This document shows positions 12,708 through 44,393 of a DNA stretch of 64,000 nucleotides, in pieces. Location: NCBI GenBank assembly GCA_026418415.1, contig JAOABK010000003.1, positions 1,685 through 65,684 of the forward strand. The letters run 5' to 3'. The stretch comes from Pseudomonadota bacterium (GTDB lineage Bacteria > CALINM01). Under the pieces are notes generated by a model, which did not search any database, had not been told where the DNA came from, and saw only the letters and a program-made list of their open reading frames with translations. The translations under genes and the position numbers were made by a program. How positions within the stretch are numbered: the first letter of the stretch is position 1; every line of letters begins with the position of its first letter.

Positions 12708-13445
12708 TTAATGCCTATGACATATAATATGTTGTGAACCATACCCAAAATAATCGGACATTTTCTCAGACTTACAAAAATCATCAAAAGTCCCAAAAAA
12801 TATTATTTTTCTATCAAAATACATAAGTTTTTTTGCATACCTTCCAGCATTGCCAGTATCATGGGTTACAAGAATTATTGTGACACCTTTATCTGAATTG
12901 AGATGCCTTAATACCTCAAAAAATCTTTCTCTCGTCTCTGGATCCAAAGCAGTTGTTGGCTCATCAAGTATAAGGATTTCTGGATCTCCAACAAGTGCTC
13001 TTGATATTAAAACTCTTTGAAGCTGGCCACCCGAAAGCTCTGTAATATTTTTATCTCTAAGTTCTAATATTCCAAGCATTTCAAGAGCTTCATCAACTTT
13101 TTCATAATCCTCCTTTTTAAATCTTACAAAACTCTTACTAACCAACCCAAGGGCAACTATTTCTTTAACAGTAGCTGGAAAAAAGGGGCTTAAATTAATT
13201 TTCTGGGGGACATATCCAATTCTATTCCAATCTAAAAATGACTCGATGGGTACATTAAATAATTTAACCTCTCCCTCATCTTTTTTTACTAAATTTAACA
13301 TAGCCTTAAGTAATGTGCTCTTACCTGAGCCATTAGGACCTGATAGAGCAACATAATCCCCTGCTTCTATAGCAAAGGATACGTCTAAAAAAATATTAAC
13401 ATCTTCGTATTTTACTGCTAAATTTTTTACCTCTATTACTGGCAT
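12708..13445 (-). CDS. znuC: Zn/Mn ABC transporter ATP-binding protein
   Basis: Walker A GPNGSGKST, signature LSGGQLQRV, Walker B ILILDEPT; His-rich C-terminus. Confidence 0.8.
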   Translation of the reverse strand: MPVIEVKNLAVKYEDVNIFLDVSFAIEAGDYVALSGPNGSGKSTLLKAMLNLVKKDEGEVKLFNVPIESFLDWNRIGYVPQKINLSPFFPATVKEIVALGLVSKSFVRFKKEDYEKVDEALEMLGILELRDKNITELSGGQLQRVLISRALVGDPEILILDEPTTALDPETRERFFEVLRHLNSDKGVTIILVTHDTGNAGRYAKKLMYFDRKIIFFGTFDDFCKSEKMSDYFGYGSQHIICHRH

Positions 13446-14374
13446 TCTAAACCCATTCTAAACTGCTTTAAATTGTTTTCCATTATTTCTAAAAAACTAA
13501 TACCCCTATCTAAGTCATCTTTAGAGACATTATGGGCGGGATTAATTTTTAACAAAGATACACCAGCTTCCATTGATAAAACATTCGCTATACGAGGTGA
13601 CATTAGTTCTTCATAAAATACATATTTAATATTGTGCTTTTTTATACTATCAATCATTTCTGCAATTCTTTTTGGTGTGGGCTCTTCATCGGGTGATAAA
13701 CCCTGATAGGCAGAAATATATTTCAAACCATAACGCTCAGTGAGATACCCAAAAGCAAAATGTCCAGCATGGTAAAAATATTTATTTTTACAGTTTTTTA
13801 GTCCCTGTTTATATTTCTCATCAATTATATCTAAGGCTTTTTTGTAAGAATTAGCGTTTTCTATATAAAACTCCCTGTTTAAAACATCCTTAGCAATCAC
13901 CCCTTCTAATATATTATCAATCATAACTTTAGCATTTTCAAAATCTAACCAGATATGGGGATCTATCTCATGATTGTGAAAGTGGCCATTATGTGAGAAA
14001 GTATCCTCTTTTTTAGCAATTCGTCTTTTTAAAACTCCCCTGCTTGTATCAATAACAAGGAGTTTTTTATTATCCGTGCTTCTTATAATTTTTTCCGCCC
14101 ACCTTTCCATCTCTTTACCAGTATAAACAAATATATCAGCCCTGCTAATTTTCACAATATCTTCTGGTTTGGGTTCAAAATTGTGGGCATCAACCCCCGG
14201 CGGAAGAAGCAGTTCAACTCTAACTTTATCTTTACCAATATGTTTACAAAAATCATAGAGAGGAAAAAGGGTTGTAATAATTAATATTCTATTGTCAGGA
14301 GCAATTTTTTTTTGATCCTTACAACAAAAAAGCAGTAATAATAGGATAATTAGAAATAAGGACCTAAATTTCAT
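13436..14374 (-). CDS. znuA: Periplasmic metal (Zn)-binding protein, ABC-3 SBP family
   Basis: Signal peptide; ZnuA/TroA-like motifs; His-rich loop SHNGHFHNHEIDPHIWLD. Confidence 0.8.
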   Translation of the reverse strand: MKFRSLFLIILLLLLFCCKDQKKIAPDNRILIITTLFPLYDFCKHIGKDKVRVELLLPPGVDAHNFEPKPEDIVKISRADIFVYTGKEMERWAEKIIRSTDNKKLLVIDTSRGVLKRRIAKKEDTFSHNGHFHNHEIDPHIWLDFENAKVMIDNILEGVIAKDVLNREFYIENANSYKKALDIIDEKYKQGLKNCKNKYFYHAGHFAFGYLTERYGLKYISAYQGLSPDEEPTPKRIAEMIDSIKKHNIKYVFYEELMSPRIANVLSMEAGVSLLKINPAHNVSKDDLDRGISFLEIMENNLKQFRMGLECQ

Positions 14375-14816
14375 TATTCTTTACTATTACCCCCTGATCT
14401 TTATTTAAACAATTACTACAAAACCCATTTACTTGAAAAAGATGAGAAATTATAGATCCTTTCAATATTTCCCTGACAAATTCCACTATTTTTATCTCTG
14501 GACAGTAATCAATATCATAGACCCTTTTGCAGGACAGGCAAACAAAATGGTGGTGATGATTTTTATTATTGCAAAGATAATAATAGAGTTGTCTATCGGT
14601 GTGAATTACTCTAAATATTACACCACCTTCAGCCATCTCCTCTAAATTTCTATATACTGTTGGTAGCCCAATCTTTTTAAATTTTATTTTCATCTCTTTC
14701 CAGATCTCTTCGGGGCTCATAAAATAACGCCTCTTTCCAAGGATATTCAAGATTTCAAGTCTTTTTGGAGTAACCTTAAGCTTTAGATTTCTAAGTATAT
14801 GAGAATAATTATTCAT
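14364..14816 (-). CDS. zur: Fur-family metalloregulator, probably Zur
   Basis: Fur-like HTH (KVTPKRLEILNIL), HHHH and CxxC metal motifs; first gene of the znu operon. Confidence 0.75.
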   Translation of the reverse strand: MNNYSHILRNLKLKVTPKRLEILNILGKRRYFMSPEEIWKEMKIKFKKIGLPTVYRNLEEMAEGGVIFRVIHTDRQLYYYLCNNKNHHHHFVCLSCKRVYDIDYCPEIKIVEFVREILKGSIISHLFQVNGFCSNCLNKDQGVIVKNNEI

Positions 14817-14935: not shown

Positions 14936-15286
14936 TTGTTATATGATATTTACATGCCCATACCATTAAAAATAGTTATAACACTCTTAATAATTATGCT
15001 TGCTTCAGAATTAGGAAAAAGATTGCCCCATCTGAGTGGTCTTATAGCTACTATGCCAATCACCACACTTTTGGTTCTCCTATGGCTAAATTACGAAACA
15101 GGAACTAACTATCAGATTTTAACTAAATTCACGTTAGCGGTAATTTTTGGTATTTTCCCAAGCATTTTCTTTTTCATAGTACTTTATTTTTGCTTTTTAA
15201 AGGGATTTTCTTTTTATATATCTCTATTTTTTGCCTTTCTCGTATGGGGCTTTGGTGCTATTATTCATCAGTTTTTTTTGAGGTAA
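14936..15286 (+). CDS. Small integral membrane protein (4 predicted TM)
   Basis: 116 aa, strongly hydrophobic throughout; the only long + strand ORF here. Confidence 0.4.
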   Translation: MLYDIYMPIPLKIVITLLIIMLASELGKRLPHLSGLIATMPITTLLVLLWLNYETGTNYQILTKFTLAVIFGIFPSIFFFIVLYFCFLKGFSFYISLFFAFLVWGFGAIIHQFFLR

Positions 15287-16901
15287 TCTTAAATTTTTGT
15301 AAAAACCAAGGCACTATCATAACTAAAGATATTATTAGTATTGAAATGATGAGAGGGAAAAAATTGCCAGTAGAAATTAGTTGAAAAATACTACTGCCAA
15401 AATATACATAAGCAATGCAAGCAGGTAACATAAATATAAATGATGCAATAACATAATGGATGAATTTAACAGGCGTTATACCAAATAGATAGTTCAAAAC
15501 TGGGAAGGGAAAAATAGGAATGATTCTTGTAAAAGCAACAACCTTCCAGCCATTTTTATCCACAAGATCTTTTAGTCTTTTCCATCTTTTTACTCCGAAA
15601 AGTTTTTTAACATAATCATGGAATATATACCTTGAAAGCAAAAAGGGTATAGAACATCCAATAGTTGCTCCCGATATGGCAAATATAACCCCTAAGACTG
15701 GTCCCCAAATTATTCCTGATAATATGGTTAGAAGGAGGCTTGGAAAAAAGAAGGTTGGTCCAATAGAATAAATTAAAAGATAAACCACTGGTGCAAGAAT
15801 CTTTGAGCTCCTTACTAAATTAAGAATTCTTTCAATGGTAATTAATCCTGTCTTTTCAAGATTATAAACAAGTATGCTCCCCAAAATAATAATCATTAAT
15901 ACAAAAATTTTAAAAAAATTTAGTTTTGAGAGTGTTGCCACCAATATTTGGTTTATTAATTTATGAGCTTCTCCTATAGGTTTCTTTAAATCAATGCCTA
16001 AAATGTTTTCATAAATATGTTTAGAAGGCAGATTTCTTTTCATAAACCTATTTCTACATCCCATGCATGATGTAAGAACTGGGGTTGAGTTTGCATGGAT
16101 ATTATTCAAAAACTCTTGAGCCACCTCTTTATCTAATCTATTCGCCAAGCCTCCAAGGCCACAGCATCTGGGGTTATCAATTTTCCCAACAATTGTTTTT
16201 TTAAAACTCATCTCTATGTTTACCTTAATCTCATTATTTACAAAGTTGGGACAAGGATTATGTAATATAAAACCCTTTTCCTCATCCGATACATCTTCTT
16301 CAGTAACTAATTCTGATACATGAATTAATTCAAATTCAGGTAAATATTCTTTAAAAATCTTCTTACAGTTAGCACAGGCAAAAATTATTTTTGAAACACC
16401 TGCATTCTCAAGTTTTTCAGACAAAGATTTAGAAAAATCTCGAAGTGCGGACAAATCACCATTTTGCCACATGGGATCACCACAACAATGGATAGCAAGA
16501 CCAACCTTCGATCCAATTTTTTTTTCAATCCAGTTTTTTAAGCCAAATACTAATTTTCTGCCCAAGGAAATAAGTGAACAGCCGGGGAAAAAAATCGTTT
16601 CCCTATCTTCAATATGCTGGAACGGGAAAGAGCTTAATCTATTTGCATATCTTCTTGAACCAATTATCCCTTCAATAATAGGTTTCGTTAGGGTCCCTTC
16701 CTTTATCAGAATACTTTTAACTTCATAAATAGCCTTTGATGGCTCGATATCTAATGGACAAGCCCTATCGCAAAGCCGACAATTGGTACATATAAAAGCA
16801 GATTTATCTTTTTTTAGATATATCTCCTTAGGATATCCATATTTTTTCAAATAGGGACAAACAAGGCATGAGCCACAAAGTGTACACTCTAAAATCTTCA
16901 C
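15261..16901 (-). CDS. Fusion protein: 2x[4Fe-4S] ferredoxin + two CCG domains (HdrD/GlcF/GlpC-like) fused to a C-terminal DedA/TVP38/TMEM64 membrane domain
   Basis: CTLCGSCLVCP and CTNCRLCDRACP clusters; CCG motifs (FFPGCSLIS...CCGDPMW, HNPCPNF...CCGLGG); C-terminal multi-TM DedA-like region (RYIFHDYVKKLFG...FTRIIPIFPF). ORF track starts it at 16955 (TTG). I place the start at GTG 16899-16901, preceded by GGGAG SD and overlapping the upstream TGA stop (GTGA coupling). Confidence 0.6.
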   Translation of the reverse strand: MKILECTLCGSCLVCPYLKKYGYPKEIYLKKDKSAFICTNCRLCDRACPLDIEPSKAIYEVKSILIKEGTLTKPIIEGIIGSRRYANRLSSFPFQHIEDRETIFFPGCSLISLGRKLVFGLKNWIEKKIGSKVGLAIHCCGDPMWQNGDLSALRDFSKSLSEKLENAGVSKIIFACANCKKIFKEYLPEFELIHVSELVTEEDVSDEEKGFILHNPCPNFVNNEIKVNIEMSFKKTIVGKIDNPRCCGLGGLANRLDKEVAQEFLNNIHANSTPVLTSCMGCRNRFMKRNLPSKHIYENILGIDLKKPIGEAHKLINQILVATLSKLNFFKIFVLMIIILGSILVYNLEKTGLITIERILNLVRSSKILAPVVYLLIYSIGPTFFFPSLLLTILSGIIWGPVLGVIFAISGATIGCSIPFLLSRYIFHDYVKKLFGVKRWKRLKDLVDKNGWKVVAFTRIIPIFPFPVLNYLFGITPVKFIHYVIASFIFMLPACIAYVYFGSSIFQLISTGNFFPLIISILIISLVMIVPWFLQKFKITSKKTDE

Positions 16902-18694
16902 AAACTTATACTCCCAAAACAAGATGAACCCCTTTTTGCTGTACAGGCATAACAATATTCAGAAGTAATAATTTTTCTTCCCTTTAGTTCCTCAAAGGAC
17001 CCTATTTTATTTATATGGGATACTTTCAATCCTGAGGCATTATTAAAATCACAATCATAAATAGTTCCGTCAAATCCAATGTTTACAAGATTTTTGCACA
17101 TAAGCCCTTTTATATTTTCCCTATTAAAATTTGATGCTAATAAAAACATATATTTATCATAGAGATTACTTAACTTAAGATTTTCCTCAAATCTTCCGAG
17201 AGGCACATTTGTTATCGAAATAAGTTTATTAAATTTAATTCCCAAATCGCTTTTAAGCGCTTTTTCAAATTTTTGATAACTTTCTTCCGAGGGAAGTTCA
17301 AAATTAACAGGATTATAAACAATATTTAGCTCAAATTTTTCACCAAATCCTATACGATTGAGTTTTTTTAGCATTTTTATTGAATCTTCAAAAGATCCCT
17401 TTCCCCTTTGCCTTTCGAATTCAGTCATATCAAAGGATGGAAAAGATACATAAAGTGCCACCCTTGAATCGCTTAATCTTTCCAACAACTCTTCTCTAAC
17501 TAACAAAGCGGTTAGATTAGTTCTAAAAATTATCTTTGGAAAATACTCCTTAGCCTTATCTAATAGAAAACTGATATGGGGGTTTAATTCTGGTGCACCT
17601 CCAGTAATATCGATTATCTCATATTTATTAATATCAATAAGTTGAAAAAGTCTTTCCATCGTTACCAATTCCATCACCCTATTATCATAAGGATTTGCAG
17701 AGAGATGGCAGTGGCTACAAGTTTGATTACATACTCCACCCACATTAATTTGTATGACCCTTATCTCTTCTTTTTTTAACTCTATCTTATTTTTTCTTAT
17801 ATTTTCTTCGAAAGAGACATAAACATTATTATTACCACAGCAATCAAAATACTTCACAATCTTCTCGCCCTTATAAGCAGAAACGGTTATAGAGAAAAAA
17901 TTTATATCCTCAACAACTCTCCAAGGCTCAGATTCTTTCTTTATTACTACCACATCTTTAAATCCCGCTTCTCTGAAGGCATTGATAAAGTCTTTTTCTT
18001 CTAACGCCCCTGATATGCATCCAGACCATAGTTCGGGATCTTCCTTTAAATATGGAGGGACTTTTTTATCAGATACAATATCACTTATTACCGCCCTACC
18101 ATTCTTTTTTAGCACTCTATATATTTCTCTAAAAAGCTCTTTTTTATCCTCATCTCTCACAAGATTAAGAACACAGTTGGATACCACAACATCAATACTA
18201 TCATTTTTAATTAGTGGACTTTCCCTTTCTAACTCTCTTATTGTGAACTCAAGATTAATGTAGTCTTCAATATTTCTGATTGGGTTTTCCTTTAAATAAT
18301 TTTCTAATTTTTCTAAATCAAGCCTTAAATTCTGTATTCTACCCCTTCTGAACTCAAAATTTTTATACCCCAATTTTTCTGCCAAATGATTTTCATATTT
18401 TCTTGCAAGATTTAACATCTCTGTATTCATATCAACACCTATTACCTTTCCTTCTTTACCCACTATCTGAGCAATAATATAAACTAACTTACCGCCACCA
18501 GAGCCTAAATCAAGCACTGTCTCTCCTTCTAATATATATGCAGAAGGATCACCACAACCATAATCCTTCTCTATTATCTCTTGAGGAATAATCTTTAGTA
18601 ATTCATTGTCATATTTTGTAGGACAACAAAGAGTTAAATCCTTTATTTGTGAAGCTTTTTTATATCTTTCATAAACCATTCTTTCTTGATCCAT
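16898..18694 (-). CDS. Fused arsenite S-adenosylmethionine methyltransferase (ArsM-like) / radical SAM protein (ArsS-like, arsenosugar-type rSAM with Cys-rich C-terminus)
   Basis: N-half: ArsM motifs YGCGDPSAYILEGETVLDLGSGGG, SNCVLNLV (As-binding Cys), WSGCISGA. C-half: radical SAM CNQTCSHC in the context IQINVGGV...; Cys-rich tail (CYAC...SSCFG). Single uninterrupted 598-aa ORF. Confidence 0.65.
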   Translation of the reverse strand: MDQERMVYERYKKASQIKDLTLCCPTKYDNELLKIIPQEIIEKDYGCGDPSAYILEGETVLDLGSGGGKLVYIIAQIVGKEGKVIGVDMNTEMLNLARKYENHLAEKLGYKNFEFRRGRIQNLRLDLEKLENYLKENPIRNIEDYINLEFTIRELERESPLIKNDSIDVVVSNCVLNLVRDEDKKELFREIYRVLKKNGRAVISDIVSDKKVPPYLKEDPELWSGCISGALEEKDFINAFREAGFKDVVVIKKESEPWRVVEDINFFSITVSAYKGEKIVKYFDCCGNNNVYVSFEENIRKNKIELKKEEIRVIQINVGGVCNQTCSHCHLSANPYDNRVMELVTMERLFQLIDINKYEIIDITGGAPELNPHISFLLDKAKEYFPKIIFRTNLTALLVREELLERLSDSRVALYVSFPSFDMTEFERQRGKGSFEDSIKMLKKLNRIGFGEKFELNIVYNPVNFELPSEESYQKFEKALKSDLGIKFNKLISITNVPLGRFEENLKLSNLYDKYMFLLASNFNRENIKGLMCKNLVNIGFDGTIYDCDFNNASGLKVSHINKIGSFEELKGRKIITSEYCYACTAKRGSSCFGSISL

Positions 18695-18706: not shown

Positions 18707-19378
18707 TTATTTATAAAATTTGATTAGTTTCTCTGGTTTGAATCCTGCCAAGAAAAGAATAACTATAAAAACATTTTTAAGACTATGAAGTATTGGATAA
18801 AAAAGTCCACCTTTTTCAATTCTTCTTGATGAGACCAGTACTTCTTTATTAATCATCTTAACTTTTCCAGCCTTTCTTAGCCTTAAAATAAGGTCTAAAT
18901 CCTCAAGAAAGGGGTAATTTTTTATACCACCAATAACCCTCAAAATTTCTTTTTTAAAAAAAATCGCCTGATCTCCATAGGGAAGATAATGTAACTTGGA
19001 ACGAATATTAGCAAATATCTCAACTAATTTCACAAAAAAATTATTTGATAGATACTTTAATCTGAAAAAACCTGCAATTTCATTGTCCTTTAATTCAAAA
19101 TCCTTTAAGGTAACCTCTTTAGATAAAATAGTATCAGCATGAAGAACTAATATAATATCTCCTTGAGCATTTTCAATGCCCTTATTAATTTGTAATCCCC
19201 TTCCTTTAGGTGAATTAATTATTTTACAATTAAACTTTTTTGCTATATCGATTGTGTTATCTGTGCTTCCACCATCTATAACAATAACTTCATAAGGCTT
19301 TAGATCCTGCAATCGTTGTAATGTCTTCTCTAAAAAAAGGGCTTCATTATAGACTGGAATTATAATAGATAATCTCAT
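18707..19378 (-). CDS. Small GT-A/family-2 glycosyltransferase-like transferase (resembles the 'rSAM/selenodomain-associated transferase 2' group)
   Basis: LSIIIPVYNE, DxD-like VIVIDGGSTD, ~220 aa single domain; immediately upstream of the ArsM/ArsS fusion. Confidence 0.6.
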   Translation of the reverse strand: MRLSIIIPVYNEALFLEKTLQRLQDLKPYEVIVIDGGSTDNTIDIAKKFNCKIINSPKGRGLQINKGIENAQGDIILVLHADTILSKEVTLKDFELKDNEIAGFFRLKYLSNNFFVKLVEIFANIRSKLHYLPYGDQAIFFKKEILRVIGGIKNYPFLEDLDLILRLRKAGKVKMINKEVLVSSRRIEKGGLFYPILHSLKNVFIVILFLAGFKPEKLIKFYK

Positions 19379-19381
19379 TTA

Positions 19382-19792
19382 TTATAGACACATCTCTTTA
19401 TAAGGAAATTCCTGAATACCACCTTCGAGTATATATAGTCTTTTTTCCTCTATTCCTCTACTTCTCATATATTCATAAGTATTTTTTGCCGCACCACCAC
19501 CTCTTGGACAAACTATAACAATTTCTAAGTTATCTGACTTTACCTTTTCTACTATCCTATCTAATTTTGCCTTATCCTGATCGCTCTTTACAGGATATGC
19601 CCCAGTAGCAATAGATCCCTTTAAGTGCTTTTTATTAAAGTCTTCATCTTTTTGAACATCAATTATATGGATTTTTTTACCACTATCCACCCATTTTTTT
19701 AACACCTCTGCTTTCAGATAGTTATAGTTTTGTGCCTCTAAACTATTAATAAAAAAAACCAGAAAAAATAAAACAAATAATATCCTTTGCAT
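19382..19792 (-). CDS. Secreted rhodanese-domain sulfurtransferase-like protein
   Basis: Signal peptide; single rhodanese fold with active-site Cys loop VIVCPRGGGAAK. Confidence 0.65.
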   Translation of the reverse strand: MQRILFVLFFLVFFINSLEAQNYNYLKAEVLKKWVDSGKKIHIIDVQKDEDFNKKHLKGSIATGAYPVKSDQDKAKLDRIVEKVKSDNLEIVIVCPRGGGAAKNTYEYMRSRGIEEKRLYILEGGIQEFPYKEMCL

Positions 19793-19801
19793 TATTCCTC
19801 C

Positions 19802-20446
19802 TTACTTAAGCTTATAAATCAAAATAACTGGATAACCATCTTTTGCTGGTAGAATCATATCATTTCCCCGAAAGTAGGAGTTTGGAGTAATAAATCTCTG
19901 AATAGAATTTGTCATTGGATAATTTGCATTACTTGTTATTGAAATCCAGCAACTTTCAAGACAGGTAATACACCCTGTTTTCTGTTCTTCTGAAGCTAAT
20001 CTATTTCCACCAAATTTAATTCTGAAACCCCTTCCAGAGGAATCTTTAAAAATATTTTCTAATTGATACTCCTTACCATTAACAATAGCTGTAACTATAA
20101 GTTCATCGCCTTCTACATATTTGCCCACACTATCTTTATTGAGATTGTTGCCTGGTTTTGCACCGATCTTAATTAGGGCATCATAAAAATCAAGTTGATT
20201 ACAATAGGCTTTTAAAATAGCCCTGTCACCGAATCTCCCATCTTTGAAAACTACTCCCCAATGGACAGTTGGCTGGTAAAGGTGCATAACATTTACTTCT
20301 GTATATATAAGAACCGCTTTATTTCTTTCATCAATTATTAAAGGTTTTTCCTTTATGGGAAGTACATTTAAAGAAACAGAAAAAGCTTTTGAACAAAGAA
20401 AAACAAGAATAAACAAAAAAACCTTACTCGTCTTTACCATAACCAA
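19802..20446 (-). CDS. Hypothetical secreted protein with CxxCxxxC motif
   Basis: Signal peptide; conserved-looking core with TGCITCLESC motif; first gene of the minus-strand operon. Confidence 0.4.
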   Translation of the reverse strand: MVMVKTSKVFLFILVFLCSKAFSVSLNVLPIKEKPLIIDERNKAVLIYTEVNVMHLYQPTVHWGVVFKDGRFGDRAILKAYCNQLDFYDALIKIGAKPGNNLNKDSVGKYVEGDELIVTAIVNGKEYQLENIFKDSSGRGFRIKFGGNRLASEEQKTGCITCLESCWISITSNANYPMTNSIQRFITPNSYFRGNDMILPAKDGYPVILIYKLK

Positions 20447-20628: not shown

Positions 20629-21870
20629 GTGAAGATAAAAGTCTTTTTTATCAAAAATAGTCATAATTTCTATAGTTTAGCTACTCTTCTTTCCGCAGTA
20701 GAGAACTTACAAAATATCTATCCTGAAATAATCCCCTATGCCTTCTTAATAGACCTGAATATTAAAAACCTTCCCTATGATAAAATTATTTTTTGTTTTT
20801 CCTATAACACAATTTCTTTCTATAGTGAATATGATGAGCTAAAAAAAACTATTAAGAATTACAAGAGTGATAAAACTTATTTTCTCGCAGGCGGTCCTCA
20901 CCCTTCTGCTAAGCCTGAAGAATTACTAAATATGGGATTTAATACCGTCATAATAGGTGAGGGGGAACAAGCAATTATTGATTATCTCCAAATGCTGAAA
21001 AATAATATAAATCCACCAAGGATATTAAGAAAACAAGTTTCAGAGTTAGACTATTTCCCTTCTTTCCCATGCAAGTCTTTTACTTACAAACCAATAGAAA
21101 TTTCAAGAGGCTGTCCTTACGGTTGTTACTTTTGCCAGACTACCTATCTTTTTTCGAAAAAAATGAAACATAGAAGCATAGAAAATATCAAGTCCCACGT
21201 TACTAACGCCTTCGAAAGAGGCATTAAAGACTTTAGATTTATTACACCAAATGCTTTGGGTTATGAAAGTCATGGCAACAAACCAAATACAAAGGCAATA
21301 AAAACCCTACTTTCTTCAATCAGAGATATTATTAAAGATAAAGGGCGAATCTTTTTTGGTACCTTTCCTTCTGAGGTTAGACCTGAGTTTCTAAATGAAG
21401 AAGTTTTGAAAATTTTAAAAGATCATGTTGATAACAAAAGAATTCATATTGGTTTGCAATCGGGTAGTGAATCGATGCTAAAAAAATCTCATCGGGGGCA
21501 TACTGTATCAGACGTTGAAAAGGCAATAGAAGTTTGTATTAAAACTGGTTTTGAAATAGATATTGATATAATATTAGGCATGCCAAATGAAACACAAGTT
21601 GATATGGAAAGGACTATGGATTTTATAAAAAAATATGCAAGTGAAAAGTTAAGTTTTCATGTTCATTACTTTATCCCATTACCAGGGACCCCTTGGTCAG
21701 ACTATCCTCCCACCCCGCTTCCTGAACAATTTAAAAAGGAACTCGAAGTATTAGTCGGAAAAGGAAGGCTTTGGGGGGCATGGAAACGTCAAATGGAGTA
21801 TTTTAAGCTAATTGAAACAAAAAAAACTTTTAATATTAATGAATTAGATTTAAAATTAACCTCATGTTAG
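20629..21870 (+). CDS. B12-binding-domain / radical SAM protein
   Basis: N-terminal Rossmann-like B12-binding-type region; radical SAM CxxxCxxC (CPYGCYFC). Confidence 0.6.
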   Translation: MKIKVFFIKNSHNFYSLATLLSAVENLQNIYPEIIPYAFLIDLNIKNLPYDKIIFCFSYNTISFYSEYDELKKTIKNYKSDKTYFLAGGPHPSAKPEELLNMGFNTVIIGEGEQAIIDYLQMLKNNINPPRILRKQVSELDYFPSFPCKSFTYKPIEISRGCPYGCYFCQTTYLFSKKMKHRSIENIKSHVTNAFERGIKDFRFITPNALGYESHGNKPNTKAIKTLLSSIRDIIKDKGRIFFGTFPSEVRPEFLNEEVLKILKDHVDNKRIHIGLQSGSESMLKKSHRGHTVSDVEKAIEVCIKTGFEIDIDIILGMPNETQVDMERTMDFIKKYASEKLSFHVHYFIPLPGTPWSDYPPTPLPEQFKKELEVLVGKGRLWGAWKRQMEYFKLIETKKTFNINELDLKLTSC

Positions 21871-23879
21871 AAAAGATTAAAATTAAAAAGCCTATTTTGC
21901 ATATTTCTTTGTATATACTCTGCATAGCTATGTTTGCTCAATTTTCTCTAAGCCTTATTCTAAATGTTGTTGGATACTATTTTGATATGAAGGAGACAAT
22001 TAGAAAAACTGGGGAATCAAAAATAGATAAAATAAACAATTTTATTGAAAGAATTGTTTCCCTGGGAGTACCCATAAACGAAATTGCACAATTAAATCAA
22101 GAGTTAGAAAAAGAAGTAAAGGATGACGTATTTCAATTTTTCACTGTAGTAGATGAAAATAATAATATCCTCTATCACAGCGATCCAATAGTGGTAGGAA
22201 CAAAATTCCCTATCGAACAAAATAAATTAGAGGCAAAGAGAGAATTAAAAGTAACAATATTTCCCTATAACGATGTTTTTCTTATTTCAAAACCAATTTA
22301 CGATTATAAAAAGACAAAAGTTGGCTTCATAATTGCAGCATATTCTCCAAACATAATCTATAAGAAAGTCTTCTGGGTTTTCTTAAGAGCCTCCTTTGCT
22401 TCATTTATAACTGGAATTTTTGGTATTGCTTTAATAGTTTACTTTTATAAAAAACAGATTCAAAAACCTTTAACTACATTGTTAGAAGGGCTTGAAAAAT
22501 TTAAAGAAGGTAAATTTGAAGAAATTCCAATAGTAGATGAAGATACTGAAATCAGTGCGATCATCTCTTCAATTAACAATATGGTAACAACTCTAAAAAA
22601 GACCTTTATAGAAAAAGAAACTCTTCTAAATAAACTAAAAAATGAAGAGGAAAAATTAAGAAAAATTATAGAAAAAACTGAAATGGGAATAGCGGTAATA
22701 AAAAATGATAAATTTGTATTTGCAAATCCTGGTTTTTTAAAAATATTAAAAATAGATTATACCTATCATTTAATTGGCAAGAGTATATACGATTTTTTCT
22801 CGCCCAGTGAAAGATTTTATTTTCGTGAAGCCTTCAATGAAGTATTAGAAACAGGACAGAAAAAAACTTTTGACACTGTTAAAATGTATGATGCACAAAA
22901 TAATGAAATCTTTTGTTCTCTGGAAGCTTCGATTCTTGAAACTTCAGAATGGGGCAAAAAACTTCTTAATCTTACCTTCCAAGATATAACAGAGAAAGTA
23001 TATTTTATGGAAGAACTAAAATCCAAAAATAAAGAGTTAGAGCAACTCATTGAAAAATATAAGTCAACACAGTTAGCTCTTCAAATAGCAAACGAAAAAT
23101 TAGAAAATGCATTGACAGCTGTAGAAAAGGCAAATGAAGAGCTCAAGAAGATTGATAATATGAAAGATGTTTTCTTCTCAACAATAACTCATGAATTAAA
23201 AACACCTCTTTCCCTAATTCATGGTTATATAAGCATTTTAAAATCTGATAGTAATGTTAAAGCATCAAATATGACGCTTGATATTGTAAATGCCATCGAA
23301 AGAGGAGCAAAAAGACTAACAAGCCTGACTGAAGAAATAATGGAGCTTATGAAAATCAGGTCTGGCAAACTGGTTCTTAATCCGACGCTAACCTATTTAA
23401 AATTTATAATAAACCCTCTAATAAATGAGTTAGATCCTCTATTGAAATCAAAAAATTTACATATTGAATTATACAACATTGAACAAATGCCCATGATCAG
23501 TTTAGATACAAAGAAGTTTGAAACTGCATTAAGAAATATAATCGTAAATAGTATAAAATATTGTAAAGAAAACGGAAAAATCATTATAAACGCCACACAA
23601 GAAAATATAGACGATAAAAAGTTTATCAAAATAGCCATTTCAGATGAGGGGTGCGGGATCTCTCCTTTTAATATAGAAAAGATTTTTACCGAGTTCTTTA
23701 CATTACCTCCACCTCAATCTGGAAAGGAACTTCCAATTAGAGGAACTGGTTTAGGCTTATCAATAGCAAAGGGTATAATAGAAGCCCATGGCGGTAAAAT
23801 ATGGGCAGAAAGCCCTGGCTATGATCCAGAAAACAATCCAGGTACAACCTTTTTTATAACAATTCCTATTATTGATTAA
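21864..23879 (+). CDS. Sensor histidine kinase (2 TM periplasmic sensor, HAMP-like, PAS, HisKA, HATPase_c)
   Basis: H-box HELKTPLSLIHGY; G-boxes GTGLGLSIAKGIIEAHGG; TM segments; PAS-like region. No cognate response regulator adjacent. Confidence 0.8.
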   Translation: MLEKIKIKKPILHISLYILCIAMFAQFSLSLILNVVGYYFDMKETIRKTGESKIDKINNFIERIVSLGVPINEIAQLNQELEKEVKDDVFQFFTVVDENNNILYHSDPIVVGTKFPIEQNKLEAKRELKVTIFPYNDVFLISKPIYDYKKTKVGFIIAAYSPNIIYKKVFWVFLRASFASFITGIFGIALIVYFYKKQIQKPLTTLLEGLEKFKEGKFEEIPIVDEDTEISAIISSINNMVTTLKKTFIEKETLLNKLKNEEEKLRKIIEKTEMGIAVIKNDKFVFANPGFLKILKIDYTYHLIGKSIYDFFSPSERFYFREAFNEVLETGQKKTFDTVKMYDAQNNEIFCSLEASILETSEWGKKLLNLTFQDITEKVYFMEELKSKNKELEQLIEKYKSTQLALQIANEKLENALTAVEKANEELKKIDNMKDVFFSTITHELKTPLSLIHGYISILKSDSNVKASNMTLDIVNAIERGAKRLTSLTEEIMELMKIRSGKLVLNPTLTYLKFIINPLINELDPLLKSKNLHIELYNIEQMPMISLDTKKFETALRNIIVNSIKYCKENGKIIINATQENIDDKKFIKIAISDEGCGISPFNIEKIFTEFFTLPPPQSGKELPIRGTGLGLSIAKGIIEAHGGKIWAESPGYDPENNPGTTFFITIPIID

Positions 23880-25242
23880 AGATATTTATTAAAGTTTTAG
23901 CAATTATTGGTATTTCCTCATCCCTAACTGTTCTAAAATCAATTATGCAGGCCTGTTCTTTTCTTCTTGCAACTATAGGTGGACTGGAATGTAAAAGCCT
24001 TAACACCAAATCCTCTTCTGATATAAGGGGATGCTTAATCCTTAAAACACAGGTTTTCAATTCAACCCCTGGAAGACTTCCACCACCTGGAGCTGAATAA
24101 TCTGTTGTTAATTGGAAAAATTCTTTATCTATCTTAGATCTTAATAGCTTTAATAATCTTTTACCACGCTTTGTTATAACTTCGATTGGTTCTAAAAGCA
24201 TACTCAATACAGGAGAGTAACCATATGCGCTTATAGACAAATAACTAAAGAGTCTTTCTAAATAATATAAAGTAAATTTATCGGGTCTAAGAGCTCTATA
24301 CATAGGATTTTTTTTCATCAATTCTATTAAATCCTTTCTTCCTACGATTATTCCAGCCTGAGTGCCTCCTAAAAGTTTGTCACCACTAAAAGATATTATA
24401 TCAACACCCTTTTTAACTTCTTCATCTATTATTGGTTCGGCATTACTAATGTTTTTTATAACTGAAATCGCACCACTTCCCTCATCAAAGTAAAGGGGTA
24501 AATTATATCTTCTTGATAACTCAACCAGTTGTGTAGTTGAAACTTCTTCCACAAATCCTTTCAGGACAAAATTGCTTCTATGAACCTTTAAAATTAATCC
24601 CGTATTGTCATTTATTGCCCTTTCATAATCAATAGGCTTGGTTTTATTTGTTGTTCCAACCTCTTTCAATATTGCTCCCGATGCCTTCATTATTTCTGGT
24701 ACTCTAAAAGAGCCACCAATTTCAACAAGTTCCCCCCTGGACACTATAACTTCTTTGCCCTGTGCTAAGGTATTTAATACTAAAAGACACGCTGAAGCAT
24801 TATTATTAACTACAAGAATATCCTCTGCACCAAACAAATCTGGTTTTAGATGCTTTAGACGAGAACCTCTTTTCCCTTCTACCAGATCAAATTCAAGATC
24901 TGAATAGTTACAAAGAAGAGGCTTTATCTCATCTATTATCTTTTCAGAAAGTGGAGCTCTGCCTAAATTTGTATGGATTACCGTTCCGGTGGCATTAATA
25001 ACCCTCTTTATCTTTGGAGATGATATCTTTCCTATAAATTTTTTCAAATTATCAGTAAAATTTACATTTGAAAATAGATCTTCTTTTTCTTCAAAAGTAC
25101 CATTTTTTATCGACTCTCTTTGCTCATCAAGCATAAGAGTAATTGCTCTTTTTACAATTTCCTTTGGAAAATCAATACCCTCTTTCTCTGCCCTTTCTAA
25201 AAGTATGTCCATCTTTGGTAAATAATCTTTAAATTTATTCAT
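23869..25242 (-). CDS. selA: L-seryl-tRNA(Sec) selenium transferase
   Basis: SelA motifs INATGTVIHTNLGRAPL, VSRGELVEIGGSFRVPEIM, PLP-Lys region FSGDKLLGG; ~457 aa. Confidence 0.85.
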   Translation of the reverse strand: MNKFKDYLPKMDILLERAEKEGIDFPKEIVKRAITLMLDEQRESIKNGTFEEKEDLFSNVNFTDNLKKFIGKISSPKIKRVINATGTVIHTNLGRAPLSEKIIDEIKPLLCNYSDLEFDLVEGKRGSRLKHLKPDLFGAEDILVVNNNASACLLVLNTLAQGKEVIVSRGELVEIGGSFRVPEIMKASGAILKEVGTTNKTKPIDYERAINDNTGLILKVHRSNFVLKGFVEEVSTTQLVELSRRYNLPLYFDEGSGAISVIKNISNAEPIIDEEVKKGVDIISFSGDKLLGGTQAGIIVGRKDLIELMKKNPMYRALRPDKFTLYYLERLFSYLSISAYGYSPVLSMLLEPIEVITKRGKRLLKLLRSKIDKEFFQLTTDYSAPGGGSLPGVELKTCVLRIKHPLISEEDLVLRLLHSSPPIVARRKEQACIIDFRTVRDEEIPIIAKTLINIFNQ

Positions 25243-26408
25243 AGCTCTATTTTTTCCATTTGACTTAAAACATATTTTCTAATGTGGTTATCATCGGGCA
25301 GATCACAAACTACCTCACCTTTATCAATTAAAACTTTAAGTATATTATCAGTATCACCACCACATTTACATCTTTTCTTAATCCCCATAGGGACTACAAG
25401 ATCATTCTGACATAACTTACATCTTAGAACATCTTTTCTCCCCGAATGCTTACCCCTTTTTGCACAAAGTACACCTTCCACTTCCACAATGTCCATTGAA
25501 AAATCAATTGTAGAAGCTGAGCTTATTGCAGTGCCTACACCATAGCCATCGCAAAACTCATTTAAATTTTTAATTTTCTCTTCATTTATGCCACCTGAAA
25601 CCATAATCTTGACCCTTTCAAAGCCTCTTATATTCAGTTCCCATCTTACCTCATCAAGAAGCCCCTTAAAATCTCCTCTTCTTGAACCCGGTGTATCAAG
25701 CCTTATTCCATATAGTTTTTCCTTAAGAGCCTCTGCTACCCTAATGGCTTCAAACTTCTCATCTAAAAAGGTATCTATTAAAACTATTCTTGGAACCTCT
25801 GGTGGTATGATTTTATCGAAGGCTTTACTCGCTTCAACTGTATCACCAAAAATTAGTATTAAAGCATGGGGCATTGTACCTGTTGGTTTAATTCCCAAAA
25901 GATCAGCAGAAAGAATAGTTGATACACCATCACAACCACCAATATAGGCACTTCTCTCTATCATAGGAGCTATTGATGGATGCATTCGCCTCGTGCCAAA
26001 ACTTATCACTGGTCTGTGTTCAGCGGCTTTTTTACACCTTGCTGATTTTGTTGCAATACCAGAAGATTGACATATAAAACCAAGCAATGCTGTTTCATAA
26101 ATCCCAAAATCTAAATAATTACCAACAACTTCCATCACAGGTGTCCATGATCTAAATATAGTTCCCTCTGGAAATGCTCTTAATGTTATTTTTTTACCCT
26201 TTAGAAGATTTATTACCTCTTTAAGCCCTGTAAAAACACCAAAATCAGTTCCTTCTGGAAAACCTTTTACTATAAATTCTGCTGAAACAATCTTGTGAAT
26301 CCCATAGGCACTAAGTACCTGTTTTGTTCTTTCAAAATAAATATCTGTTACAAGCCCCTCTTTTATCTCCTCCTCTGTTGCAATAAAAAAATCTCTCTCC
26401 TTTTTCAT
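25239..26408 (-). CDS. Nicotinate phosphoribosyltransferase (archaeal/short type) with C-terminal Zn-ribbon
   Basis: NAPRTase-family motifs (FGTRR, TMPHALIL, SGGINE) and terminal CKLC...CKCGG. Confidence 0.7.
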   Translation of the reverse strand: MKKERDFFIATEEEIKEGLVTDIYFERTKQVLSAYGIHKIVSAEFIVKGFPEGTDFGVFTGLKEVINLLKGKKITLRAFPEGTIFRSWTPVMEVVGNYLDFGIYETALLGFICQSSGIATKSARCKKAAEHRPVISFGTRRMHPSIAPMIERSAYIGGCDGVSTILSADLLGIKPTGTMPHALILIFGDTVEASKAFDKIIPPEVPRIVLIDTFLDEKFEAIRVAEALKEKLYGIRLDTPGSRRGDFKGLLDEVRWELNIRGFERVKIMVSGGINEEKIKNLNEFCDGYGVGTAISSASTIDFSMDIVEVEGVLCAKRGKHSGRKDVLRCKLCQNDLVVPMGIKKRCKCGGDTDNILKVLIDKGEVVCDLPDDNHIRKYVLSQMEKIEL

Positions 26409-38655: not shown

Positions 38656-40164
38656 TTAAAAATGTACCTCAAATGTTGCATATATATTTGTAGCTTTTTC
38701 AATTGGCGACATCATCTGTGCATTCATAGGATTATCAAGGGCATCAATATCAACTGGCGCACCCACCCAGTTATTACTTCCAGTGTAATCAAACTGATAG
38801 TATTGATAGCCTAACTTAAAAAATGCTTTTGCGTTAAATGATGATATTGCCTTCTGTTTAATTTCCTGAATGATGTAGGCTTCATAAACATTTCCCCTTG
38901 TACCTAACTTGCTTGTCCATATATCATCTGCTGCTGGTGCAAAGGTTATCCAATTTTTCGTTCCGTGGTTATATTCAAGTCCTATTTTAGTGCCCGTTGA
39001 TTCAATGTCATATCTTCCACCTAAATATATAGCATATCCAGTTTTAGAATTTTTGTTTTCCATAGGATTTAAAAGAAGCCCAGTACCAAAGGGGCCTGAT
39101 TTTTCATGAGGATCTGTAATACTTGCTGCAGCACTTACAAACCAGTTGAGGCTACCTGCACCTACATTCTTAACTTTACCAAGAACAGTTGCACCATACC
39201 AATCGATGTTGCCCAAAGATGTTGTTGTTGGTCCTGTAGGAAATCCGGGGAATACTTCTTTCATAACAGGTGCATCAAAAATATTCATACCTCTATTCCA
39301 TTGTAAGAAAACTGTTAACTTTTCAGTATCATAGGGTACTAACTGAACACCAAACATATCAGTATCATCTAAACTATTTGTTGCGGTCTGAAATCCACTT
39401 TCAAAGCCTCTACCATAACAAATTTTAACATAAGCACCTGGCAGAGCTTCGATGTCTGGAGCATAACCTAATGTCATTCCATCAAATGCATAATCAACCA
39501 AAAGTGCAGGAGTTCCACTTACATCTGGTTTTGGTGCATTTTGTTTTAAATGTGTGGGAATACCACCAGTAGACGGTCTTCTACCTACAGAAAACCATAA
39601 AGGCTGTCCAAGAATATTGTTCCATGTAGCATATGCGGTATCTACATAAAGGGTATTGTCATTGGGAATATGCCCTACTATGCCATCAAAAACACCTGCT
39701 CTGTCGGCAAAAAATGGTCCCAAAACAGCGCTTGAATCTTGAGCACCACTTACCTTATTCATAACCAATCTTGCTGTTACTGAAACATCCTGAGTTGCTT
39801 TAATTTTCAAGTTAAGACCAAACCTATTAGTATAAAGAGAGTCATTCTCAACTGTCTGTTTAGCCATTGGAATTGGAACAAAGGGATTAATTGGATTAAA
39901 CTGCCAGTAATTGGGCATATCAGCTCTCAATACATCAACACGAAATCTGTAATCACCACCTAACGTAAACCATTTTGAGATGTTAGTGCTTTCTGTCTTT
40001 TCAATTCTTTTTTGTTGATCCTGCAGCTGCTTTTTCAATGTTTCAATCTCTTTCTGTAGATTCTCGATCTTCTTTTCAATAGCTTCTTGAGCATTAGCAC
40101 TTCCAATCATTAATAAAATAACCGCTATTGAACTAAGTTTTTTCAAAAACCCCTTTAGCTTCAT
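38656..40164 (-). CDS. Putative outer-membrane beta-barrel (porin-like) protein with N-terminal coiled coil
   Basis: Signal peptide ending ANAQE; coiled coil (IENLQKEIETLKKQLQDQQKRIEK); alternating amphipathic beta-strand pattern; C-terminal ...FEVHF. Confidence 0.55.
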   Translation of the reverse strand: MKLKGFLKKLSSIAVILLMIGSANAQEAIEKKIENLQKEIETLKKQLQDQQKRIEKTESTNISKWFTLGGDYRFRVDVLRADMPNYWQFNPINPFVPIPMAKQTVENDSLYTNRFGLNLKIKATQDVSVTARLVMNKVSGAQDSSAVLGPFFADRAGVFDGIVGHIPNDNTLYVDTAYATWNNILGQPLWFSVGRRPSTGGIPTHLKQNAPKPDVSGTPALLVDYAFDGMTLGYAPDIEALPGAYVKICYGRGFESGFQTATNSLDDTDMFGVQLVPYDTEKLTVFLQWNRGMNIFDAPVMKEVFPGFPTGPTTTSLGNIDWYGATVLGKVKNVGAGSLNWFVSAAASITDPHEKSGPFGTGLLLNPMENKNSKTGYAIYLGGRYDIESTGTKIGLEYNHGTKNWITFAPAADDIWTSKLGTRGNVYEAYIIQEIKQKAISSFNAKAFFKLGYQYYQFDYTGSNNWVGAPVDIDALDNPMNAQMMSPIEKATNIYATFEVHF

Positions 40165-44384: not shown

Positions 44385-44393
44385 AATAAAAAT

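What the first reader, a model, noticed from the sequence alone, without database searches (positions are those of the whole stretch)
16898..18694. Single-polypeptide fusion of ArsM-like methyltransferase and ArsS-like radical SAM enzyme
Sequence shows one uninterrupted 598-aa ORF. The N-half carries the ArsM hallmark YGCG(D/N)P...GE.VLDLGSGGG and the As(III)-binding Cys positions (SNCV..., ...SGCISGA). The C-half carries the rSAM CNQTCSHC and a Cys-rich tail (CYAC, SSCFG) like the arsenosugar rSAM family. A fusion would couple arsenite methylation directly to 5'-deoxyadenosyl transfer. Here the would-be Sec position is Cys (TGT), so this is the non-selenoprotein variant even though the genome is Sec-competent.
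Basis: partly seen in the sequence, partly recalled or inferred. Interest (0 to 1): 0.7.

Follow-up and report, generated by a model that had tools for sequence, protein, structure and literature searches.

The report
ArsM–ArsS fusion enzyme, real but not new
One real gene encodes an arsenic methyltransferase joined to the radical-SAM enzyme of arsenosugar synthesis, but such fusions are common in public genomes and one was published in 2024, so this is an ordinary variant.

Summary
Window 16898-18694 (minus strand) is one uninterrupted 598-aa ORF. Residues 1-280 are ArsM-like, with cysteines matching CmArsM Cys72, Cys174 and Cys224. Residues 306-596 pass the curated ArsS model (CX3CX2C plus DUF3641 tail). 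It is not an assembly artefact: 12 independent 57-65 % identical homologs are co-linear across the junction, and about 35 longer fusions exist. The last conserved Cys (C592, TGT) aligns with an in-frame TGA in six stand-alone arsS loci, and SelA lies 5 kb away, so both selenocysteine remarks hold. The gene sits in a conserved arsenosugar-type operon (TIGR04283 glycosyltransferase, rhodanese, 4Fe-4S/CCG-VTT membrane protein). Most likely it converts As(III) to DMAs(III) and then to 5'-deoxy-5'-dimethylarsinoyl-adenosine on one polypeptide.

Novelty is low. The exact protein is in NCBI (MCX7769720.1, named ArsS). ArsS/ArsM fusions occur in both domain orders in more than 100 sequence clusters, including [Clostridium] scindens. 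An "ArsSM fusion protein" was published in 2024 (Yang et al., ES&T).

New here:
- The methyltransferase belongs to an uncurated clade nearest the arsinothricin-type ArsM model.
- About 86 aa of its C-terminal domain are deleted.
- A conserved Cys-Cys pair remains at the junction.

The parts
16898..18694 (-). ArsM-ArsS fusion ORF, 598 aa (identical to NCBI MCX7769720.1)
17855..18694 (-). ArsM-like SAM methyltransferase half (aa 1-280). It lacks about 86 aa of the C-terminal domain found in stand-alone relatives and in the long fusions.
18623..18628 (-). Cys23-Cys24 (LCCP), the probable counterpart of CmArsM Cys44. Present in 46 of 46 aligned fusions that have this region.
18554..18556 (-). Cys47 in YGCGDP, equivalent to CmArsM Cys72
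18491..18517 (-). SAM-binding motif VLDLGSGGG (aa 60-68)
18173..18175 (-). Cys174 in SNCV, equivalent to the As(III) ligand CmArsM Cys174
18017..18019 (-). Cys226 in SGCISGA, equivalent to the As(III) ligand CmArsM Cys224
17780..17869 (-). Short inter-domain linker (aa 276-305). AF2 pLDDT dips to 63 at aa 281-290.
17837..17842 (-). Junction Cys285-Cys286. This is the remnant of the Cys-rich C-terminal tail (SCCG..GCC) of stand-alone methyltransferases of this clade.
17309..17779 (-). Radical SAM core (aa 306-462)
17708..17731 (-). CX3CX2C [4Fe-4S]/SAM motif CNQTCSHC (C322, C326, C329), invariant in 49 of 49 sequences
16910..17278 (-). DUF3641 Cys-rich C-terminal domain of ArsS (aa 473-595). 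C533, C548, C581, C584 and C592 are invariant in 49 of 49 sequences.
16919..16921 (-). Cys592 codon TGT, at the position that is Sec (TGA) in selenoprotein ArsS
18707..19378 (-). TIGR04283 arsenosugar-biosynthesis glycosyltransferase (210.9 bits, cutoff 182), immediately upstream in the same operon
19382..19792 (-). Rhodanese-domain protein with an N-terminal signal-like sequence. It is conserved next to the fusion in the P0007 and Caldimicrobium loci.
19802..20446 (-). YdjY-domain protein, probably the first gene of the operon. It is not conserved in related loci.
15261..16955 (-). 4Fe-4S/CCG (HdrD-like) domain fused to a VTT/DedA-type membrane domain, translationally coupled to the fusion. 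The true start is probably the GTG at 16901, which overlaps the fusion's TGA. Conserved partner gene.

Best explanation
The ORF is a genuine bifunctional enzyme of an arsenosugar-type pathway in a low-GC, Sec-competent anaerobe.

Proposed mechanism:
1. The N-terminal ArsM-like domain binds As(III) through Cys174 and Cys226, with Cys47 and Cys23/24 as the redox pair. It methylates As(III) twice with SAM to give DMAs(III).
2. The C-terminal ArsS domain reductively cleaves a third SAM at its CX3CX2C [4Fe-4S] cluster. [quoted passage not shown]
3. The DMAs(III) is probably held by the Cys-rich DUF3641 tail, with Cys592 at the Cys/Sec position.
4. Fusion keeps the very toxic trivalent methylated intermediate on the protein. 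The conserved Cys285-Cys286 pair at the junction is a candidate relay site.
5. Downstream steps are carried out by the co-operonic TIGR04283 glycosyltransferase and the HdrD-like/VTT membrane protein.

Shown here: the architecture, the motifs, family membership of the ArsS half, recurrence of the fusion, and the conserved context.

Inferred: the substrates, the order of steps, channelling, and the role of the CC pair.
For: Architecture and motifs:
- One ORF with both domains.
- The ArsS half passes the TIGR04167 cutoff at 309.6 against 300.
- Its eight cysteines are invariant in 49 of 49 fused homologs.
- The ArsM half aligns to CmArsM with Cys72, Cys174 and Cys224 conserved.
- The AF2 model has mean pLDDT 89.5. 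Its N half hits ArsM and AS3MT structures at E 3e-21 and TM 0.62, and its C half hits the rSAM enzyme SkfB.

Recurrence of the fusion:
- P0002-P0049, in Caldimicrobium and Thermodesulfovibrionales.
- Independent fusions in the same order with a different methyltransferase clade, in C. scindens and Coriobacteriales.
- Fusions in the reverse order, in Desulfosediminicola, Desulfopila, Nitrospirota, Omnitrophota and Arcobacter.
- This recurrent 'Rosetta-stone' pattern argues for functional coupling.

Split operons:
- The same methyltransferase clade (53-57 % identity) lies on the same strand in seven stand-alone arsS loci.
- In L003 and L025 it lies directly upstream of arsS.

Context:
- Glycosyltransferase, rhodanese, the fusion and a CCG-VTT protein, with or without DUF2064, recur together.

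Published chemistry:
- ArsS adenosylates DMAs(III) to DDMAA (PMC13598754; bioRxiv 10.64898/2026.04.29.721666).
- SsArsM and SsArsS act together in the first steps of arsenosugar synthesis (PMC8552651, citing Xue 2019).
Against: - No biochemistry exists for this protein or its clade.
- The methyltransferase half is below every curated ArsM cutoff: NF040538 at 306 against 500, PRK11873 at 196 against 263, and NF038099 at 113 against 400. Its nearest model is the arsinothricin-type ArsM, which methylates an organoarsenical rather than arsenite.
- The ArsS score is only just above its cutoff.
- The Cys44 equivalent is not strictly aligned (spacing of 23-24 against 28 residues).
- About 86 aa of the ArsM C-terminal domain are missing.
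- The title of the only published fusion study stresses arsenic methylation, not arsenosugar formation.
- No arsenosugars are known from organisms of this kind (my knowledge).
Confidence: 0.62

Rival explanations
1. The chemistry is the same but the order or the output differs. Either the rSAM domain acts first on As(III) or MAs(III) and the methyltransferase then methylates the adenosyl-arsenical, as ArsL then ArsM do for arsinothricin. Or the physiological product is mainly methylated arsenic (DMAs), with the ArsS half playing an accessory role.
For: - The methyltransferase clade is closest to NF040538, the arsinothricin ArsM that methylates AST-OH after the rSAM step.
- The published ArsSM fusion is reported under the heading of arsenic methylation.
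Against: - Characterised ArsS uses DMAs(III).
- All four ArsM-type cysteine positions needed for As(III) methylation are present.
- The ArsS half belongs to TIGR04167/DUF3641, not to the RCCLKC-tail ArsL family.
Confidence: 0.22
2. The pair acts on something other than arsenic, such as Sb(III), a selenium or tellurium species, or a thiol metabolite. On this reading the 'arsenosugar' names are annotation by homology only.
For: - The methyltransferase fails the curated ArsM cutoffs.
- No ars resistance genes were seen beside the operon in the window.
- Rhodanese and Sec-linked neighbours hint at S/Se chemistry.
Against: - The As-ligand cysteines are conserved.
- The ArsS equivalog cutoff is met, and so is the cutoff for the TIGR04283 glycosyltransferase.
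- An ArsA-type ATPase gene lies near the Caldimicrobium fusion.
Confidence: 0.08
3. These are two separate genes merged by a frameshift, sequencing error or assembly error at the junction.
For: An A7 run lies in the linker at 17771-17777.
Against: - The ORF is uninterrupted.
- 12 independently assembled homologs at 57-65 % identity have the same length and a gap-free junction.
- There is no ATG between M93 and M341, so the rSAM half has no start of its own before its cluster motif.
- The P0007 locus is fully syntenic, and its gene was called as one 598-aa product in ENA and JGI assemblies.
Confidence: 0.01

Closest known systems
ArsSM fusion protein of a paddy-soil sulfate-reducing bacterium (Yang, Chen, Gao, Xue, Huang, Zhang, Zhao 2024, Environ Sci Technol 58:19266, doi 10.1021/acs.est.4c04730)
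   Same: One polypeptide joins an ArsS-type radical SAM domain and an ArsM-type methyltransferase in an anaerobe.
   Different: - Only the title could be read.
- The name implies the order ArsS then ArsM. The window protein is ArsM then ArsS.
- The reverse-order fusions found here carry a generic PRK11873-like methyltransferase, not the NF040538-like clade of the window.
- The window protein also has a truncated methyltransferase C-terminal domain.
Synechocystis sp. PCC 6803 SsArsM plus SsArsS (separate enzymes; Xue et al. 2019; Cheng et al. 2021)
   Same: The two chemistries match: As(III) to DMAs(III) by SAM methylation, then radical 5'-deoxyadenosylation to DDMAA. The ArsS half passes the same equivalog model, TIGR04167.
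   Different: There are two proteins there and one here. The cyanobacterial-type ArsM model (NF038099) scores only 113 bits against a cutoff of 400. The window organism is an anaerobic, low-GC bacterium, not a phototroph.
CmArsM / human AS3MT (PDB 4FS8, 4FR0, 6CX6, 8XT7)
   Same: The fold matches (Foldseek E 3e-21, TM 0.62). The SAM motif is present, and so are the cysteines equivalent to Cys72, Cys174 and Cys224.
   Different: - Identity is about 33 %.
- There is an extra helical insert of about 35 aa (aa ~125-158).
- The region equivalent to CmArsM ~293-372 is deleted.
- The Cys44 counterpart is shifted.
- The domain is fused to an rSAM domain.
Arsinothricin pair ArsL (RCCLKC-tail radical SAM) plus ArsM (NF040538)
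   Same: A radical SAM C-As bond former works with an ArsM. NF040538 is the best-scoring model for the window's methyltransferase half. A Cys-rich C-terminal tail binds arsenic in ArsL, which resembles the CC and Cys-tail motifs here.
   Different: The rSAM half here belongs to the DUF3641/TIGR04167 ArsS family, not the ArsL family. The NF040538 cutoff is not met (306 against 500). ArsL transfers a 3-amino-3-carboxypropyl group, not 5'-deoxyadenosyl.
ArsM-to-ArsS fusions of [Clostridium] scindens and Coriobacteriales (e.g. P0379, 676 aa; RefSeq name 'ArsS')
   Same: The domain order (methyltransferase, then rSAM) is the same as in the window protein. The ArsS halves pass TIGR04167.
   Different: Identity is only 31 %. 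The methyltransferase is generic and PRK11873-like, with the full C-terminal domain. It lacks both the ~35-aa insert and the junction CC. This is probably an independent fusion event.

Membership tests
ArsS (TIGR04167, arsenosugar biosynthesis radical SAM (seleno)protein) | Score at or above the curated equivalog cutoff | tested here: met
   309.6 bits against a cutoff of 300, aa 306-596, covering profile positions 2-303 of 303. The margin is small.
ArsS (TIGR04167) | CX3CX2C radical SAM cluster motif | tested here: met
   C322/C326/C329 (CNQTCSHC), invariant in 49 of 49 sequences.
ArsS (TIGR04167) | DUF3641 Cys-rich C-terminal domain with CxxC and a terminal Cys/Sec | tested here: met
   PF12345 at 133 bits. 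C533, C548, C581, C584 and C592 are invariant. C592 aligns with TGA in L001, L006, L051, L063, L065 and L071.
ArsS (TIGR04167) | Neighbourhood with the TIGR04283 glycosyltransferase and an ArsM-type methyltransferase | tested here: met
   The glycosyltransferase at 18707-19378 scores 210.9 against a cutoff of 182. The methyltransferase is fused. The same context is seen.
ArsS (TIGR04167) | Transfers 5'-deoxyadenosyl to DMAs(III) to give DDMAA | not testable with these tools
   Needs an anaerobic enzyme assay.
ArsM / AS3MT As(III) SAM methyltransferase | Class I SAM-methyltransferase fold with a GxGxG SAM motif, nearest structurally to ArsM | tested here: met
   VLDLGSGGG is present. The top 13 Foldseek hits are CmArsM, CrArsM and AS3MT.
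ArsM / AS3MT | As(III)-binding cysteines equivalent to CmArsM Cys174 and Cys224, plus Cys72 | tested here: met
   C174, C226 and C47 align exactly. They are conserved in 44-48 of 49 sequences.
ArsM / AS3MT | Fourth cysteine equivalent to CmArsM Cys44 | tested here: inconclusive
   A conserved CC at positions 23-24 lies 23-24 residues before C47, against 28 in CmArsM. It falls outside the confident alignment.
ArsM / AS3MT | Passes a curated ArsM model (PRK11873, NF040538 or NF038099) | tested here: not met
   195.7 against 263, 306.4 against 500 and 112.9 against 400. Full-length stand-alone relatives also fail. This is an uncurated clade of the ArsM superfamily.
Published ArsSM fusion (Yang et al. 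2024) | ArsS and ArsM domains in one polypeptide | tested here: met
Published ArsSM fusion (Yang et al. 2024) | Same domain order and orthology with the published protein | tested here: inconclusive
   The paper is not held. The name suggests ArsS then ArsM. The window protein is ArsM then ArsS, and the reverse-order fusions found here use another methyltransferase clade.
ArsL (RCCLKC-tail radical SAM, arsinothricin) | C-terminal RCCLKC motif and membership of the ArsL family | tested here: not met
   The tail is CYACTAKRGSSCFGSISL. No ArsL-type model appears among the 25 best NCBIfam hits listed, out of 66. Motif definition.

The most novel reading that the evidence does not exclude
In this clade the fusion created a true channelling machine. 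Once ArsS was attached, the ArsM C-terminal domain became dispensable. It was eroded several times: linker spans of 40, 68 and 103 residues, against about 126. Only the conserved Cys-Cys pair was kept. That pair would act as a swinging thiol relay, handing DMAs(III) from the methyltransferase site to the Cys/Sec tail of ArsS, so that free DMAs(III) is never released.
Probability: 0.25. Interest if true: 0.5.

Novelty: new variant of a known kind. Interest (0 to 1): 0.3.

Why it matters
If the fusion works as proposed, one protein turns arsenite into the committed arsenosugar precursor using three SAM molecules. That makes it a compact target for reconstituting organoarsenical biosynthesis. It would also serve as a marker for arsenosugar or arsenolipid production by anaerobes, where such products are essentially unstudied; these anaerobes include thermophilic sulfur bacteria and gut Clostridia.

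In practice, public annotation calls all these proteins just 'ArsS'. Surveys of arsM-based arsenic methylation potential may therefore miss or mis-assign them.

As a discovery it adds little. The fusion idea is already published and the architecture is widespread.

Tried and rejected
- **Exact-sequence contig look-up for the window protein.** It found nothing.
- **Genome-contig scan.** It therefore gave neither the source genome nor the close fused relatives. It was still useful for the Sec position and for split-operon order.
- **tRNA-Sec or SECIS in the window.** None was found. Sec competence rests on SelA instead.
- **Promoter and terminator scan.** Uninformative: 31 sites found against 30 expected.
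- **Primary papers.** Xue 2019, Cheng 2021 and Yang 2024 are not held. Details of ArsS substrates come from reviews and preprints, and only the title of the ArsSM paper is available.
- **A Sec or other substitution at C47.** I suspected this because the column is below 90 % conserved. It is only three distant outliers plus truncated sequences.
- **ArsL-type (arsinothricin) function for the rSAM half.** Rejected: it belongs to a different family and has a different tail motif.
- **Assembly artefact.** Rejected.
Full report
**Observation**

The window holds one uninterrupted ATG-started ORF at 16898..18694 on the minus strand, 598 aa long. An AAGGGG ribosome-binding site lies 7 nt upstream.
- YGCGDP (C47)
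- GETVLDLGSGGG
- SNCV (C174)
- SGCISGA (C226)
- CNQTCSHC (C322/C326/C329)
- CYAC (C581/C584)
- SSCFG (C592)

Pfam finds Methyltransf_31/25/11 in the N half and Radical_SAM (aa 316-462) plus DUF3641 (aa 473-595) in the C half. In NCBIfam the C half (aa 306-596) reaches the curated equivalog cutoff of TIGR04167, 'arsenosugar biosynthesis radical SAM (seleno)protein ArsS', at 309.6 against 300 bits. The N half (aa 21-277) matches only ArsM-type models.

**Is the fusion real?**

Yes.
- The exact protein is in NCBI as MCX7769720.1, 'MAG: arsenosugar biosynthesis radical SAM protein ArsS [Proteobacteria/Pseudomonadota bacterium]', from a 104-kb contig.
- Twelve further clusters of 593-600 aa from independent assemblies are 57-65 % identical over the full length.
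- All of these have exactly 40 residues between K275 and Q315, so the junction is co-linear and gap-free.
- About 35 more clusters of roughly 680-690 aa (Caldimicrobium, Thermodesulfovibrionales) have the same order with a longer linker.
- There is no ATG between M93 and M341, so the rSAM half cannot be made separately with its cluster motif.
- The one homopolymer in the linker (17771-17777) leaves the frame in register with the homologs.
- The locus of the 63 %-identical P0007 is fully syntenic with the window, and its gene was called as one 598-aa product in both ENA and JGI assemblies.

**Anatomy**

An alignment with stand-alone relatives (about 390 aa, 56-59 % identical to the N half; KSB1, Omnitrophica, Binatia) shows how the fusion was built. 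The long fusions equal a complete methyltransferase followed directly by ArsS. The window's short class has lost about 86 aa of the methyltransferase C-terminal domain.

Three other fusions have different partial deletions, with spans of 68, 68 and 103 residues. This suggests repeated erosion of that domain after fusion.

What survives at the junction is a Cys-Cys pair (C285-C286, 17837-17842). It is invariant in the 17-sequence alignment and present in 37-39 of 49 fusions. It corresponds to the Cys-rich extreme C-terminus (SCCG..GCC) of the stand-alone enzymes.

AlphaFold2 on a 49-sequence alignment gives a confident model, with mean pLDDT 89.5 and pTM 0.68. The only dip inside the protein is at aa 281-290. 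By Foldseek:
- The N half is closest to CmArsM, CrArsM and human AS3MT (E 3e-21, TM 0.62 on the target).
- The C half is closest to the rSAM enzyme SkfB.
- No solved ArsS structure appeared among the matches.

**ArsM cysteines**

phmmer alignments to CmArsM (4FR0/4KW7) put query C47, C174 and C226 exactly on Cys72, Cys174 and Cys224. The fourth cysteine (Cys44) is probably represented by the conserved LCCP (C23/C24). That pair lies 23-24 rather than 28 residues before the YGCG cysteine and is outside the confident alignment, so I rate it inconclusive.

The methyltransferase half does not reach any curated cutoff:

| Model | Score (bits) | Cutoff (bits) |
|---|---|---|
| NF040538, arsinothricin-type ArsM | 306 | 500 |
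| PRK11873, arsenite methyltransferase | 196 | 263 |
| NF038099, cyanobacterial arsenosugar ArsM | 113 | 400 |

Full-length stand-alone members of the clade also fail, at 356-377 against 500. It is therefore an ArsM-superfamily domain of an uncurated clade. That clade also carries a helical insert of about 35 aa (aa ~125-158), absent from CmArsM and from the C. scindens fusion.

**Selenocysteine remarks**

I fetched 80 stand-alone arsS loci from named genomes and translated their 3' ends. Six Desulfobacterota-type loci read '...CTAG(S/A)GFT*(G/A)G...', where the other 74 have '...GSSC(G/Q/T)G...'. The stop is TGA in all six. This position is C592 of the window protein, encoded by TGT at 16919-16921.

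The window also encodes a SelA equivalog at 23869-25242 (Pfam SelA 417 bits; TIGR00474 at 498 against 268). The genome is therefore Sec-competent, although no tRNA-Sec lies in the window.

**Context**

The gene sits in a minus-strand operon:
- YdjY-domain protein (19802-20446)
- Signal-peptide rhodanese (19382-19792)
- TIGR04283 'arsenosugar biosynthesis glycosyltransferase' (18707-19378, 210.9 against 182 bits)
- The fusion
- A translationally coupled protein combining an HdrD-like 4Fe-4S/CCG domain with a VTT/DedA membrane domain (15261-16955)

Glycosyltransferase, rhodanese, the fusion and CCG-VTT recur in the P0007 and Caldimicrobium loci, the latter with DUF2064. Glycosyltransferase, the fusion and DUF2064 recur in Desulfosediminicola.

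Among the 80 split loci, 21 have an ArsM-like gene within 6 kb on the same strand. Seven of these belong to the window's methyltransferase clade (53-57 % identity). In L003 and L025 it sits directly upstream of arsS, which is the gene order expected for a fusion by stop-codon loss.

**How common is the fusion, and is it known?**

An exhaustive HMMER scan of 1.84 billion representatives found fusions in both orders.
- Reverse-order (ArsS then methyltransferase) proteins occur in Desulfosediminicola flagellatus (WP_136805211.1), Desulfopila, Thermodesulfobacteriota, Nitrospirota, Omnitrophota, Chlamydiota and Arcobacter. They carry a generic PRK11873-like methyltransferase.
- Same-order fusions with that generic methyltransferase occur in [Clostridium] scindens (676 aa, seen on about 100 contigs) and in Coriobacteriales.
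- The best 120 clusters listed all carry methyltransferase, Radical_SAM or DUF3641 Pfam domains together, and nearly all carry all three.
- The fusion therefore arose at least three times and is widespread. PGAP simply names these proteins 'ArsS'.

In the literature, three searches for ArsS/ArsM fusion wording found nothing. The term 'ArsSM' then led to Yang et al. [quoted passage not shown] The paper is not held, so only its title is evidence here. The title establishes that an ArsS-ArsM fusion has been described, probably in the reverse order.

**Mechanism**

From established ArsM chemistry: As(III) is bound by the Cys174/Cys224 pair, with Cys44/Cys72 acting in a disulfide cascade (Marapakala et al. 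2015, listed).

From published ArsS chemistry:
- The 5'-deoxyadenosyl radical adds to DMAs(III) to give DDMAA in a redox-neutral reaction.
- SsArsM and SsArsS together perform the first arsenosugar steps.

The most likely function is therefore As(III) to DMAs(III) to DDMAA on one polypeptide. The toxic trivalent intermediate would be passed between sites. The junction CC pair and the C581/C584/C592 tail are plausible arsenic-binding stations, by analogy with the arsenic-binding RCCLKC tail of ArsL. The HdrD-like domain of the neighbouring protein could re-reduce the catalytic disulfides. These steps are inference; I put 0.62 on the overall model.

The main rival (0.22) is a reversed order or a mainly methylating role. 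This is suggested by the methyltransferase half's affinity to the arsinothricin-type model and by the title of the 2024 paper. A non-arsenic substrate (0.08) and an artefact (0.01) are unlikely.

**Verdict**

What is new is modest:
- An ArsM-to-ArsS fusion built from an uncurated, NF040538-like methyltransferase clade.
- A deleted methyltransferase C-terminal domain.
- A conserved junction Cys pair.
- The Cys (not Sec) form, in a Sec-competent genome.

I classify it as a new variant of a known kind, with interest 0.3.

Noticed in passing
window 23869-25242 (-): A SelA (L-seryl-tRNA(Sec) selenium transferase) equivalog lies next to a quinolinate-phosphoribosyltransferase-like gene (25239-26408). 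The same pair is syntenic in the P0007 locus. No tRNA-Sec, SelB or SelD was identified in the parts of the window I scanned.
   Followed up: partly
window 15261-16955 (-): This protein fuses an HdrD-like 4Fe-4S/CCG domain (it matches the 'dicluster-binding protein near Sec' model, below cutoff) to a VTT/DedA-type membrane domain. It is conserved directly downstream of the ArsM-ArsS fusion in two other lineages. Its listed TTG start overlaps the fusion by 58 nt. A GTG at 16901 that overlaps the fusion's TGA (GTGA) is a more likely start.
   Followed up: partly
window 19382-19792 (-) and 19802-20446 (-): A rhodanese-domain protein and a YdjY-domain protein, both with signal-peptide-like N termini, lie upstream in the same operon. 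The rhodanese recurs next to the fusion in the P0007 and Caldimicrobium loci. The YdjY gene does not.
   Followed up: partly
P0379 / P0385 / P0400 ([Clostridium] scindens), P0417 (Coriobacteriales): The human-gut bacterium [Clostridium] scindens carries a 676-aa ArsM-to-ArsS fusion, seen on about 80-120 contigs per sequence variant and named only 'ArsS' in RefSeq. This suggests gut anaerobes could make adenosyl- or sugar-type organoarsenicals.
   Followed up: partly
window 18221-18322 (-) (aa ~125-158 of the fusion): The methyltransferase clade has a two-helix insert of about 35 residues between the SAM-binding and As-binding parts. It is absent from CmArsM and from the C. scindens fusion. It splits every alignment to PDB ArsM structures into two blocks.
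   Followed up: no
L001, L006, L051, L063, L065, L071: Selenoprotein forms of stand-alone ArsS (an in-frame TGA in 'GFT-U-GG', then 5-6 more codons) occur in Desulfobacterota MAGs. In L080 (Geobacteraceae) the same motif reads GFSCGG with Cys.
   Followed up: yes
window 20629-21870 (+) and 21864-23879 (+): A TIGR04013 B12-binding radical SAM protein (403.7 bits against a cutoff of 251) and a PAS histidine kinase are divergently transcribed from the arsenic operon. The arrangement is conserved in the P0007 locus. Any link to the operon is unknown.
   Followed up: no
window 38656-41728 (-): A DUF3373 protein (498 bits) lies next to a multihaem c-type cytochrome with MtrC/MtrF-like domains, which hints at extracellular electron transfer.
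   Followed up: no
window 44019-44387 (+): Bacterial RNase P RNA class A (310 bits). It could be used to place the organism taxonomically. The window is 32.6 % GC.
   Followed up: no
window 12708-14816 (-): A Fur/PerR-family regulator (14364-14816) and a ZnuA/AztC-like metal-binding protein (13436-14374) lie directly downstream of the arsenic operon, followed by an ORF at 12708-13445 that I did not scan (its counterpart in the P0007 locus is an ABC ATPase). The metal-binding and ABC genes are syntenic in the P0007 locus.
   Followed up: no
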